Of a DNA stretch of 64,000 nucleotides, positions 51,001 to 54,000 are shown one piece after another. Origin of the DNA: Leucoraja ocellata (lineage: Eukaryota); contig JAWMAR010000030.1 in the NCBI GenBank assembly GCA_036785375.1, forward strand, positions 7,254,001-7,318,000. The letters are read 5' to 3'. A program made the position numbers. Each line of letters begins with the position of its first letter. Position 1 is the first letter of the stretch.

Positions 51001-54000
51001 GAAACAATTGGCATTGGGTGTAACTCCAACTGAACATTTCTCAATCTCATGCTCCAGTTTGGCTGATTTCATTGTCCTGATAGTAACAGATCAACTAAAC
51101 ACAGATCACATAGAAACATAGAAACATAGAAAAATGACATCTGGGAGAGTGAGCATAAGAGTTCATTTTCCAACCAAAATTTAAGCATGAGGTAATGATT
51201 CATTTATTTCATGTGAAGGAGATTTTTTTTAAATAGTGAAAAATAATGAGTTTAGCATCAAATCACAGATCCTTTTACTCGGATTATTCCAGGTGCGGAA
51301 GCGAGGGAAAGCTTGTAGAGGTGGGCTACGTGAGAATGATACCCTCCTGACCATCAATGGAAGATCTTGCAGTGGAATTTCACATGCAGATGCAATGAAC
51401 ATCATAGACTCTTCAGACGGGACTCTGCGCATCTGGGTCAAGAGGTACTAAACACGGACGGTGCAAAATGCAATCACTTGAGTTCCTTTATTTAAGCAGT
51501 TTATCATTCCTTAGATTTTTAAATGTTTGGCAAACCCAGTTAAGGTTCAATGATAAAGGAATATGATAGAGTGCAGAAATGTTATTCCATCTGTTTGGAA
51601 TTCCAGGGTCCCTCAACACTGCATGTGGTGAAATATTACCCATAGATTCTGTTCTTGATTATTGTTCCAGGCATGTCAACCTAGTTACGTACTGAAATGA
51701 AGGTGTGATGAACATCATGTTTATTACACTTCCAGGCCAAGTTCTCCAGGGTGGAATAACTGCAACTAGCAGAAAGTTCAACCCTTCTGGTGTTAGGGGA
51801 CGCTTTAGTGGGAATATGTCATGAAGTGCATTCAAGGGTGAGATATATTAAGGATGTATAGGTAATCAGGCAGGGGAGGATATGCTCAGATGCGACTGGA
51901 CGGGGTTATATAATCACCTTCTGCCTCTATGTTCTTTAAAACGCCCAACACGCCCTCGTCCCCTCCCCACAACCTCAGCATCTACAAAGCCCCATGCGGT
52001 TTAAAAGTTTATCTCTGTAACTTGGCTGAAGGGACTGAGAGAGAGTGACTTCGCACACTTGATATTTGAACCCATGACGGGCGTTCTTACCCACTGATTC
52101 CAGGCCAGCCACTGCCAGCCACTGAGATGCCACTAATCCAGGAGGGTGCTAGTCTATCCCGGGTTCAATTGTTCCATCGCTTCTGATCCCAGTAACTTGA
52201 ATCCTCTTCTAGGATTTCGTGCAGCCCGGCAACTGGCAGCTTTCAATCTGAGACCAGCCCGGCCACCGCCCCCTGTGAACGGAGCCAAGAAACTTCAAAA
52301 GTCCCCGGGCTAATGCGGGAGCCCCCCAGTGTGAAGGCAGAGGCATCCCGCGGCACCAGCGGGCTCCGTGGCCAGCCGGAGTGCTACACATCGCCCCCGG
52401 ACAGCGAGGCGTATTACGGTGAGACCGACAGCGACGCGGATCACACGGCCAGCGAGAGGCAGCGGAGGCAGAAGAAGCGCTGGCCGGGTCCCAGAGCGCC
52501 AGTGCGGGGATCGGCCGACGAGACGTCGGAGCAGAGCGAGTACGACAGCGCCCCGGAGCCGGTGTGGAGCGACTGCCGCTCCCCTCTGAGTCCCCTGTCG
52601 CCGGAACCCACAGCATCCGCCTGTCTGGATCATCCCAGCCTCGCCCAAGGGGCAATCCCGAGGATGTTTCAGCCCAGGAAGGTGGAAGCCAAGATTAATA
52701 TCTGGCAGCCCAAAGTGGAGATGGCTACTTACCCCAAGCCTGGTCTCGCCCACACTATCCTCACCCCCAGCAGCCACACTCAGCCCACTCCCCGTTACCC
52801 TACCACCAACCCCAGCTACCACAACTACCACCCCACCTACCCCATCACCAACCCCACCTACCCCAACACCACCTACCCCATCACCAAACTCACCACCAAC
52901 CCCACCTACCCCAACACCAACCCTACCTACCCCAACACCAACCCTACCTACCCCATCACCAACCCCACCTACCCCAACACCAACCCTACCTACCCCAACA
53001 CCAACCCCACCTACCCCAACACCACCTACCCCAACACCAACCCTACCTACCCCAACACCAACCCCACCTACCCCAACACCAACCCCACCTACCCCAACTC
53101 CAACCCCACCTACCCCAACACCAACCCCAACACCAACCCCGCCTATGCCAACACCTGGTCTGCCCAGTCCAGCGGCGAAGATGTCCCTCTGCGACAGGGG
53201 ATCCTGGGCACGTCGGAAACTGACAGCGGCTTCCAGGAGGTACACGCCCAGGCCGGCTCACCTGAGCAGAAGCTGCTGCCGACCGCCAGCCTGCCCAGCA
53301 TGCCCAGCCTGAGGGATACACAGCTGGTGCCCATGGTGGGCCCAGTGACCAACCCCGTGGACGAGTTGCTAACCACCACCTACAAAGAGAAGGCCAAGCA
53401 AGCCAGTAAGTTTTTTTAGTTACCTTCTAAGATAGTCTCAAATAATTTTAAACCTAAAGTCCTCCGATGCTCTGGGCTTTTCTGATGTGTTCAATGTGCT
53501 GCTATTAAGTGGAACATGAGAGGTTTAGAGGATATGAGGTCAACTCTCTGAAAAGCACGTCAGTTGCTGTCTGTTACTTGATACTCTGTGTGATCTTATG
53601 GTCAAGACTTGAAAACAGTTGTTTAAACATACCCATGAAAGCGCCGTGTATTTATATATATATATATTTCTAATTTACTACAATAGTGCTATCCTTTAAA
53701 CCTTTCGAATAAAACAACATTCTATTATTTGATGAAGAAAAATGTATTACTTTGGGATAATTATAGGGTGGGATCAATGCAAGTGTTCAGGTAAATACAG
53801 ATTCCACTGTATTGGTGTGACAATGGTTTAATATAGCAACCCTTGTCAATGAGATTTCTAGGTAGAGACCAGAAAACTTTGGAAGTAAGATTTGGTGACT
53901 GCAAGTCACTGGCGATAAGAACAATAAAGTAGGGCTTTATAGGGAGTTTTAGATTGCTAGATTGTGATGGCTGCAAGATCTGTAGGGATGGTGGGAAAGG

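What the first reader, a model, noticed from the sequence alone, without database searches (positions are those of the whole stretch)
52796..53155. Tandem NPTY heptad array in SYNPO2L: ~13 NPxY and ~13 YxN motifs
Seen: an in-frame 120-aa insert of (NPTYPNT)n with only frame-preserving length variants. Most tyrosines are simultaneously in an NPxY and a YxN context. Known: NPxY binds PTB/FERM domains (NPTY is the APP tail motif) and pYxN binds the Grb2 SH2 domain; I do not recall this repeat in mammalian SYNPO2L. The heptad also shares Y1, T4 and P6 spacing with the Pol II CTD. Inference: a lineage-specific multivalent docking or condensate module restricted to the PDZ isoform. It may instead be a tolerated neutral minisatellite.
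Basis: partly seen in the sequence, partly recalled or inferred. Interest (0 to 1): 0.68.

Follow-up and report, generated by a model that had tools for sequence, protein, structure and literature searches.

The report
Skate SYNPO2L coding heptad minisatellite
A 21-base unit has been copied about sixteen times inside a coding exon of a skate muscle gene (SYNPO2L), lengthening a floppy, fast-changing stretch of the protein; it looks like an ordinary tolerated repeat expansion, not a proven signalling module.

Summary
Window 52796-53155 holds a 21-bp tandem array (TRF 15.9 copies, score 451). It reads in frame as 120 aa with 13 NPxY and 13 YxN.

It lies in exon 3 (52213-53405) of SYNPO2L in a skate, not a human, genome.

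The docking or condensate reading gained no support:
- The nine interior 7-codon units differ by at most 2 of 21 bases, so motif identity reflects recent copying.
- The array sits in the most variable stretch of the exon. That stretch is 170 aa here and 27-117 aa in 13 other species.
- Of 122 SYNPO2L proteins, 110 have no NPxY. Only rays have clusters: Pristis 6, Amblyraja partial model 4, Mobula 3.
- A shark, Heptranchias, expanded a different 10-aa unit at the same site.
- Exon 4 carries a second 21-bp array.
- The exon is predicted disordered.

Best reading: a slippage-born, frame-constrained coding minisatellite shared by skates and probably near-neutral. A multivalent tyrosine-motif function is not excluded. 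The claim of restriction to the PDZ isoform cannot be judged here.

The parts
29178..29282 (+). SYNPO2L exon 1, coding part (start codon to donor; first 35 codons, start of the PDZ domain)
   Evidence: tblastn of P0001-P0003 gives 29178-29294 at 85-92% identity. The ATG and the AAG|gt donor were read. The residues match the N-terminus of P0121.
51293..51444 (+). SYNPO2L exon 2 (rest of the PDZ domain)
   Evidence: tblastn gives 51266-51445 at 87-88% identity. The ag acceptor and gt donor were read. Pfam PDZ PF00595 scores E 5.6e-7 and PDZ_6 E 2.5e-6, both above their cut-offs.
52213..53405 (+). SYNPO2L exon 3, 1193 bases, predicted disordered; holds the array
   Evidence: Acceptor and donor were read. 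tblastn gives 52211-53404. The first 195 residues are 99% identical to the Leucoraja erinacea partial model, 95% to Amblyraja radiata and 76% to Pristis. AlphaFold2 mean pLDDT is 49.2, with no secondary structure before residue 383.
52796..53155 (+). The 21-bp (heptad) coding tandem array, 120 aa, 18 Tyr-terminated units
   Evidence: TRF, translation and motif counts, unit table, pattern scan.
52910..53113 (+). Homogeneous interior of the array: nine 7-codon units and one 5-codon unit
   Evidence: The nine 7-codon units differ pairwise by 0-2 of 21 bases, mean 1.0. The units outside this span are degenerate.
62124..64000 (+). SYNPO2L exon 4, the large last exon, cut off by the end of the window
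   Evidence: Acceptor read. tblastn gives 62120-64000 at 56-75% identity. Translation. Weak Calsarcin PF05556 match, E 0.016, below the cut-off.
63108..63526 (+). Second 21-bp coding array in exon 4 (SPPPAVM heptads, 20.4 copies); a shorter run of 3.5 copies lies at 63686-63759
   Evidence: TRF score 593, 88% matches. Translation. The same kind of array is visible in the 11 shark and ray orthologues fetched (motif counts 6-22).

Best explanation
The array is a coding minisatellite. A 21-base unit was amplified by replication slippage or unequal exchange. The unit derives from an Asn/Pro/Thr/Tyr-rich motif that already stood just before the conserved 'TWSAQ' block of SYNPO2L exon 3. Amplification took place inside an intrinsically disordered, fast-evolving linker between two conserved blocks.

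The expansion happened in the skate lineage and is kept homogeneous by ongoing copying. Selection visibly acts on only one property: total length must stay a multiple of three so that the conserved downstream half of the protein is still made.

The product is a longer flexible Pro/Asn/Thr/Tyr spacer in the Z-disc protein. Its effect is most likely neutral or nearly so.

Shown: the array, its frame, its place in the gene, its DNA homogeneity, its absence or shortness in other lineages, and the predicted disorder. Inferred: the slippage mechanism and near-neutrality.
For: 1. **Recent copying.** The eleven 7-codon units fall into 5 DNA variants. The nine interior ones differ by 0-2 of 21 bases (mean 1.0), while the edge units are degenerate. 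That is the usual pattern of a young array with old edges.
2. **Hypervariable site.** Between two conserved anchors the segment is 170 aa here. It is 85, 68 and 80 aa in three other ray orders, 51-117 aa in eight sharks, 34 aa in chimaera and 27 aa in coelacanth. This covers the 14 of 121 sequences in which both anchors were found (alignment).
3. **The motif is not conserved.** Of 122 SYNPO2L proteins, 110 have no NPxY and 9 have one. Only Pristis (6), the Amblyraja partial model (4) and Mobula (3) have more.
4. **Independent expansion of another unit.** Heptranchias has 8 copies of a 10-aa unit, with no NPxY, at the same site.
5. **The array evolves faster than its flank.** Against the Leucoraja erinacea model the flank is identical at 192 of 194 residues, but the start of the array at only 20 of 26 (Fisher p = 3.7e-5).
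6. **The gene is prone to this.** A second 21-bp array of 20.4 copies lies in exon 4.
7. **Extreme strand asymmetry.** The array has 212 C and 3 G. The opposite strand carries 33 runs of three or more G.
8. **Disorder.** Block-mean pLDDT is 41-50 over array residues 195-314, with no secondary structure. Pfam finds no family.
Against: - The array has stayed in frame and is shared by at least two skate genera. The Amblyraja model shows at least 4 units of the same heptad before it breaks off, so the array is not a private accident.
- In the eleven 7-codon units the N, P and Y of NPxY never change (11 of 11 each). The commonest variable site is a synonymous CCC/CCT (7 against 4) in that Pro. The four non-synonymous variants fall in the other positions. 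This is the pattern expected under motif-level constraint, although six variants are too few to test.
- The first and last NPxY units have counterparts in Pristis and Mobula, which hints at some retention across ray orders.
- No DNA of relatives was available, so no between-species dN/dS could be computed.
- The structure model rests on only 15 sequences.
Confidence: 0.7

Rival explanations
1. The array is a selected multivalent docking module. Its repeated NPxY motifs recruit PTB- or FERM-domain proteins. After tyrosine phosphorylation, its YxN motifs recruit SH2 adaptors of the Grb2 type to the Z-disc.
For: - There are 13 NPxY and 13 YxN, and 12 tyrosines carry both.
- N, P and Y are invariant in the 11 canonical units.
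- The array is shared by Amblyraja, and short NPxY clusters occur in Pristis and Mobula.
- Passages of PMC3507883 say PTB domains most commonly read NPXY or NPXpY and mostly prefer unphosphorylated Tyr. They also say tensin PTB domains bind NPXY.
Against: - The motif count comes from a single amplified heptad.
- The units are near-identical in DNA, so their sameness needs no selection.
- Only 2 of 13 NPxY have a hydrophobic residue at -5. That this residue is a common PTB requirement is recalled, not found in a call.
- Pro follows 11 of 13 YxN tyrosines. I recall this as unfavourable for SH2 binding, but the passages read did not address it.
- Narcine has 0 NPxY, and 7 of 8 sharks have 0 NPxY in the segment.
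- The parallel Heptranchias expansion has no NPxY.
- No paper links SYNPO2L to NPxY.
Confidence: 0.1
2. The array matters through bulk properties, not through motifs. Evenly spaced tyrosines in a Pro/Asn/Thr spacer could promote weak self-association (condensate behaviour). Alternatively, its length could set the distance between the PDZ end and the actin/alpha-actinin-binding body of the protein.
For: - The composition is 33 T, 30 P, 28 N and 18 Y out of 120 residues, with Tyr mostly every seventh residue.
- It is predicted disordered.
- Two lineages, skates and Heptranchias, independently lengthened the same linker with Tyr-containing units that share YPNT.
- The only PDB sequence matches are Rpb1 CTD heptads.
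Against: - The CTD match is not significant: E 0.19-0.22, 14 bits, and no stretch passes.
- Segment length ranges six-fold among species, and several sharks have 0-1 Tyr there. Neither length nor Tyr content is therefore generally constrained.
- Nothing here measures self-association.
Confidence: 0.12
3. The array is not part of the mature protein as read here. Either it is removed from the mRNA, or its length in this assembly is wrong.
For: - No transcript data were available.
- Both public skate models (P0121, P0122) are partial and stop inside the array. This suggests the region is hard to assemble or annotate.
Against: - The array contains no GT and only one AG, so no canonical intron can begin inside it.
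- The flanks are conserved coding sequence in one frame within one exon.
- The Pristis, Mobula and Narcine models keep the homologous segment as coding.
- The Amblyraja model reads the same heptad in the same frame.
- The window has no N.
Confidence: 0.05

Closest known systems
Coding minisatellites (in-frame tandem repeats in disordered protein regions), including the SPPPAVM heptad array of the same gene
   Same: - Head-to-tail copies of a unit whose length is a multiple of three.
- A homogeneous interior with degenerate edges.
- Large length differences between related species.
- A location in a disordered segment.
   Different: The NPTYPNT unit was not found in any other protein examined. 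It is absent from all 150 listed hits of the representative search. A word-based search of proteins of 696-2000 aa gave no hit. Polymorphism within a species, the usual hallmark, could not be examined.
NPxY motifs read by PTB and FERM domains
   Same: The four-residue core is present 13 times.
   Different: - Known examples, as I recall them, are single or double motifs in receptor tails, not arrays in a cytosolic Z-disc protein.
- The hydrophobic residue at -5 is present in only 2 of 13.
- The motif is not conserved across orthologues.
- No binding data exist.
pYxN motifs read by the Grb2 SH2 domain
   Same: Y-x-N spacing is present 13 times.
   Different: Phosphorylation is unknown. The +1 residue is Pro in 11 of 13, and I recall this as untypical of SH2 ligands. 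The motif follows automatically from the heptad.
RNA polymerase II CTD heptads
   Same: Period of seven with Tyr, Thr and Pro at fixed positions. It is the only kind of PDB chain that the exon matches at E up to 1 (4 distinct Rpb1 sequences).
   Different: - E is 0.19-0.22, which is not significant, and no stretch passes.
- No Pfam CTD repeat hit.
- There is no Ser-Pro or Thr-Pro dipeptide in the canonical unit.
- The protein is an unrelated one.

Membership tests
SYNPO2L (synaptopodin 2-like protein, CHAP) orthologue | N-terminal PDZ domain | tested here: met
   The exon 2 translation hits PF00595 (E 5.6e-7, 30.3 bits against a cut-off of 23.2) and PF17820.
SYNPO2L (synaptopodin 2-like protein, CHAP) orthologue | Colinear similarity to named SYNPO2L proteins across all exons | tested here: met
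   - The hits to the exon 3 query carry the name SYNPO2L wherever a source names the family, and the best are rays and sharks.
- Four colinear tblastn blocks on the + strand.
- Splice phases agree with P0121.
- Exons were searched one by one and were not joined.
SYNPO2L (synaptopodin 2-like protein, CHAP) orthologue | Calsarcin-like region (PF05556) in the large last exon | tested here: inconclusive
   E 0.016, 15.3 bits, below the cut-off of 24. Most orthologues carry the precomputed PF05556 label. The exon is cut by the end of the window.
Coding minisatellite | Tandem head-to-tail copies, with unit length a multiple of three and the frame kept | tested here: met
Coding minisatellite | Copy number differs between related species | tested here: met
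   The segment is 170 aa here against 27-117 aa in 13 other species. NPxY counts are 13 against 0-5 in that segment.
Coding minisatellite | Length polymorphism within a species | not testable with these tools
   No second genome of the same species and no read data were available.
PTB/FERM-binding NPxY motif | N-P-x-Y core | tested here: met
   13 instances.
PTB/FERM-binding NPxY motif | Hydrophobic residue at -5 (requirement recalled, not from a call) | tested here: not met
   The -5 residues are T, I, T, N, N, I, N, N, N, N, N, N, N. That is 2 hydrophobic of 13.
PTB/FERM-binding NPxY motif | Conservation of the motif in orthologues | tested here: not met
   110 of 122 SYNPO2L proteins have none. 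Narcine and 7 of 8 sharks have none in the segment.
PTB/FERM-binding NPxY motif | Demonstrated binding to a PTB or FERM domain | not testable with these tools
   No interaction data. No paper holds both SYNPO2L and NPxY.
Grb2-type SH2 ligand (pYxN) | Y-x-N spacing | tested here: met
   13 instances.
Grb2-type SH2 ligand (pYxN) | The tyrosine is phosphorylated in vivo | not testable with these tools
   No proteome data were available.
RNA polymerase II CTD-like heptad repeat | Significant sequence match to CTD repeats | tested here: not met
   PDB phmmer finds Rpb1 chains only at E 0.19-0.22, with 0 passing stretches. Pfam finds 0 families at E up to 1.

The most novel reading that the evidence does not exclude
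Rays gained a tyrosine motif, NPxY followed by x-N, in the SYNPO2L linker, and skates multiplied it to 13 copies under selection. This would turn a Z-disc scaffold into a multivalent platform that gathers PTB/FERM or SH2 proteins, or drives tyrosine-dependent clustering, in skate striated muscle. The invariance of N, P and Y in all 11 canonical units, and the retention of the first and last units in Pristis and Mobula, would then be the footprint of that selection.
Probability: 0.1. Interest if true: 0.55.

Novelty: new member of a known kind. Interest (0 to 1): 0.25.

Why it matters
If the ordinary reading holds, the value is practical and modest:
- It records a hot spot where cartilaginous fishes repeatedly expand in-frame repeats in a cardiac and skeletal Z-disc protein.
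- It may explain why the public skate gene models stop half-way, since both end inside the array.
- It warns against counting motifs in tandem repeats as independent evidence.

If the bold reading held, it would be a natural case of a scaffold protein gaining a multivalent tyrosine-motif array. It could be studied by comparing skates with rays that have only 0-5 units.

Tried and rejected
**Searches for the array elsewhere**
- A word-based search with array residues 192-318 against proteins of 696-2000 aa collected 3779 candidates, and none scored E <= 0.01.
- The representative-library search with the 120-aa array gave 262 hits at E <= 0.001 and 21 at <= 1e-10.
- The 5 of the 150 listed hits that I read are unrelated proteins with other low-complexity units: PNTNPGQ, TYPSTGT, PTYPGQQ, GPTYGHT and AYPNTD.
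- None of the 150 holds NPTYPNT, and 6 of 150 have 5 or more NPxY. I treat these as compositional matches, not relatives.
- The ESM Atlas gave no usable hit.

**Families and structures**
- Pfam on exon 3 found 0 families.
- The PDB search found only non-significant Rpb1 CTD matches.

**Other checks**
- A strict G-quadruplex pattern (loops up to 7) on the opposite strand was not found. A looser pattern (loops up to 12) spans 52900-53140.
- Pfam on 10 of the 24 ORFs of at least 110 aa in the window found 0 families.
- I considered and rejected a dispersed repeat or transposon origin, because the unit occurs nowhere else in the window.
- I looked for a printed statement on Pro at +1 of Grb2 SH2 ligands. 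The passages of PMC10065799 did not address it, so that point stays recalled.
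Full report
**1. The observation**

Window 52796-53155 holds a real tandem array.
- Tandem Repeats Finder gives 52796-53129, period 21, 15.9 copies, 83% matches, 8% indels and score 451.
- Among the 15 TRF rows for the whole window, only one array scores higher, and it lies in the same gene.
- The 21-base unit is found 14 times with up to 3 mismatches. All 14 lie within 52796-53143, against 0 in 100 shuffles. It is therefore a local array and not a dispersed element.
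- In the frame of the single ORF 52313-53419 the stretch reads as 120 aa with 13 NPxY, 13 YxN, 11 NPTY and 11 YPN.
- Of its 18 tyrosines, 12 are in both contexts and 4 in neither.
- Cut after each Tyr there are 18 units of 3 to 11 codons, eleven of them of 7 codons. All length variants are multiples of three.

The double motif count, however, is one fact (one heptad, repeated) and not 26.

**2. The gene and the organism**

The window has no N, and its CpG observed/expected ratio is 0.19-0.63, as in vertebrate DNA.

I searched the first 195 residues of the exon against longer proteins. This gave 121 hits at E <= 0.001 among 1148 candidates, of which 120 were listed. The hits carry the name synaptopodin 2-like protein wherever a source names the family.
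- The best are rays: Pristis pectinata 76%, Mobula birostris 74% and Narcine bancroftii 72%.
- Sharks follow at about 50%.

Among shorter proteins the best hits are two partial skate models: Leucoraja erinacea at 99% and Amblyraja radiata at 95%.

I therefore take the window for a skate close to, but not identical with, the Leucoraja erinacea model. It is not human.

tblastn of three ray proteins gives four colinear blocks on the + strand. Read against the sequence, the blocks are:

| Exon | Coordinates | Note |
|---|---|---|
| 1 (coding part) | 29178-29282 | start codon to donor |
| 2 | 51293-51444 | PDZ, Pfam E 5.6e-7 |
| 3 | 52213-53405 | holds the array |
| 4 | 62124 to the window end | cut by the window |

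All have ag/gt borders, and their phases reproduce the residues of P0121 across the junctions.

The joined sequence was never made or searched.

**3. Anatomy of the array**
- Composition is 212 C, 116 A, 29 T and 3 G. There is no GT and a single AG, so no canonical intron can start inside it.
- The eleven 7-codon units fall into 5 DNA variants.
- The nine interior units (52910-53113) differ pairwise by 0-2 of 21 bases, mean 1.0. The units at both ends are degenerate.
- Among the eleven units there are two synonymous variants. One is CCT for CCC in codon 1 (1 unit). The other is in codon 5, the Pro of NPxY (4 units).
- There are four non-synonymous variants: N to I in 2 units, N to T in 1, T to S in codon 3 in 1, and T to S in codon 6 in 1.
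- N (codon 4), P (codon 5) and Y (codon 7) are unchanged in 11 of 11 units.
- The opposite strand carries 33 runs of three or more G. A loose G-quadruplex pattern spans 52900-53140, but a strict one is absent.

**4. Relatives**

I fetched 12 of the 120 listed proteins and the two skate models. I aligned 14 of them with the exon (viewed).

The array fills a gap between two conserved blocks. These are '...MFQPRKVEAKINIWQPKVE' upstream and 'TWSAQ...DSGFQE...LVPMVGPV' downstream.

Both anchors could be found in 14 of 121 sequences. The other 107, nearly all bony-vertebrate models, lacked the upstream anchor pattern and were dropped.

| Species | Segment length (aa) | NPxY in segment |
|---|---|---|
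| This window | 170 | 13 |
| Pristis | 85 | 5 |
| Mobula | 68 | 2 |
| Narcine | 80 | 0 |
| Heptranchias | 117 | 0 |
| Seven other sharks | 51-55 | 0-1 |
| Chimaera | 34 | 0 |
| Coelacanth | 27 | 0 |

- Heptranchias has 8 copies of a different 10-aa unit, PQPNSHY[SP]NT, which gives 8 YxN.
- Over whole proteins, 110 of 122 have no NPxY, 9 have one, and only Pristis (6), the Amblyraja partial model (4) and Mobula (3) have more.
- Both skate models are partial and end inside the array. Amblyraja shows four NPxY, three of them in full NPTYPNT heptads, before it stops. Leucoraja shows the same degenerate first units.
- Against Leucoraja the flank is identical at 192 of 194 residues, but the start of the array at only 20 of 26 (Fisher p = 3.7e-5). 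Without the last two residues of the truncated model it is 20 of 24.
- Against Amblyraja the flank is identical at 184 of 194, and the ungapped array start at 21 of 36.
- The last unit before TWSAQ has counterparts in Pristis and Mobula (NPIYA.TW) and in some sharks (NPTYPITW in Cetorhinus). In other sharks, however, the Tyr is Cys or Ser.

My reading is that an old, loosely kept N/P/T/Y patch was present in the common ancestor. Rays had a few degenerate units, and skates amplified the interior.

**5. Is the array found elsewhere?**
- A word-based search with the array against proteins of 696-2000 aa found nothing at E <= 0.01 among 3779 candidates.
- The exhaustive representative search found 262 proteins at E <= 0.001.
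- The five I read are unrelated proteins with other Pro/Thr/Asn/Tyr repeats.
- None of the 150 listed holds the heptad.
- Their names could not be obtained.
- The Atlas gave nothing usable.

**6. Structure**

AlphaFold2 was run on exon 3 with the 15-row alignment.
- Mean pLDDT is 49.2 and pTM is 0.18.
- There is no secondary structure except a helix at residues 383-396.
- Block-mean pLDDT over the array is 41-50.

The alignment is shallow, so this is consistent with disorder but does not prove it. Pfam finds no family in the exon.

**7. The proposed motif functions**
- Passages of a review (PMC3507883) confirm that PTB domains most commonly read NPXY or NPXpY, that most prefer unphosphorylated Tyr, and that tensin PTB domains bind NPXY.
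- The extra hydrophobic residue at -5, which I recall as usual for such ligands, is present in 2 of 13 motifs.
- The residue after Tyr is Pro in 11 of 13 YxN. That this is poor for SH2 binding is recalled and was not confirmed in the passages read.
- The CTD likeness is real only as periodicity. The exon's sole PDB matches are four Rpb1 sequences at E 0.19-0.22, with no passing stretch.

**8. Mechanism and weighting**

Best supported, at about 0.7: a slippage or unequal-exchange minisatellite in a disordered, hypervariable linker, held only to a multiple of three and probably near-neutral.

Points against this reading, stated fully:
- The array persists in two skate genera.
- N, P and Y are invariant in the canonical units, with synonymous variation in the Pro codon.
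- The edge units are retained in two other ray orders.

These points keep two alternatives alive: a selected tyrosine-motif or bulk-property function (about 0.1 each), and a small chance of an assembly or splicing artefact (0.05).

**9. Isoform claim**
- Passages of PMC5716575 and PMC11352367 state that mouse has a 978-aa PDZ form and a 749-aa form without PDZ.
- PMC5716575 attributes the two forms to different start sites. It also says that zebrafish and chick express only the long form.
- I saw only the legend of the figure with the mouse exon map.
- A medaka database model (P0059, no PDZ hit) still begins before the exon-3 block.
- For skates nothing is known here, so the claim cannot be judged.

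**10. Print**
- No paper in the library holds SYNPO2L together with NPxY.
- None holds any of four heptad strings.
- None holds synaptopodin, skate and tandem repeat together.
- Supplements were closed and may hold gene tables that I could not see.

**11. Left unchecked**
- DNA of relatives, and therefore dN/dS.
- Polymorphism within a species.
- Transcripts and phosphorylation.
- Names of the low-complexity hits.
- The closed metagenome and viral collections.
- The genome-contig collection holds only bacteria and archaea, and I did not use it.

Noticed in passing
window 63108-63526 and 63686-63759: A second and stronger 21-bp coding array (20.4 copies, 88% matches, TRF score 593) lies in exon 4 of the same gene and reads as SPPPAVM heptads. 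Arrays of this kind, with very different copy numbers, are visible in all 11 shark and ray orthologues fetched. The chimaera has a different unit.
   Followed up: partly
proteins P0121 and P0122, corresponding to window about 52796-52900: Both public skate SYNPO2L models (Leucoraja erinacea 306 aa, Amblyraja radiata 316 aa) are marked partial and stop inside the heptad array. The array may be what breaks assembly or annotation in those genomes.
   Followed up: no
protein P0004 (Heptranchias perlo), the segment homologous to window 52700-53160: There is an independent expansion at the same site: 8 copies of a 10-aa unit, PQPNSHY[SP]NT. It shares YPNT with the skate heptad but has no NPxY.
   Followed up: partly
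window 23972-24883 (+): The longest ATG-started ORF outside the gene's exons (303 aa) gives a weak match to zf-RVT, the zinc-binding region of reverse transcriptases: E 8.1e-5, 23.6 bits, below the 27.5 cut-off. It is probably a retroelement remnant about 4 kb upstream of exon 1.
   Followed up: partly
window 24001-32000: The region around exon 1 is richer in G+C (0.46-0.49) and in CpG (observed/expected 0.61-0.63) than most of the window (0.19-0.54 elsewhere). This resembles a promoter-associated CpG-rich zone.
   Followed up: no
window 52780-53170, minus strand: The strand opposite the array carries 33 runs of three or more G. A loose G-quadruplex pattern (loops up to 12) spans 52900-53140, and none is found with loops up to 7. 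This may bear on the instability of the array.
   Followed up: partly
window 45288-45340: A short C/T-rich simple repeat, (TCCCC)n and 16- and 26-base variants of it, lies in intron 1.
   Followed up: no
protein P0059 (Oryzias latipes model): This database model has no PDZ hit and starts with a different N-terminus, but it contains the conserved block of the exon-3 equivalent. PDZ-less forms that include this exon are therefore at least predicted in a teleost.
   Followed up: no
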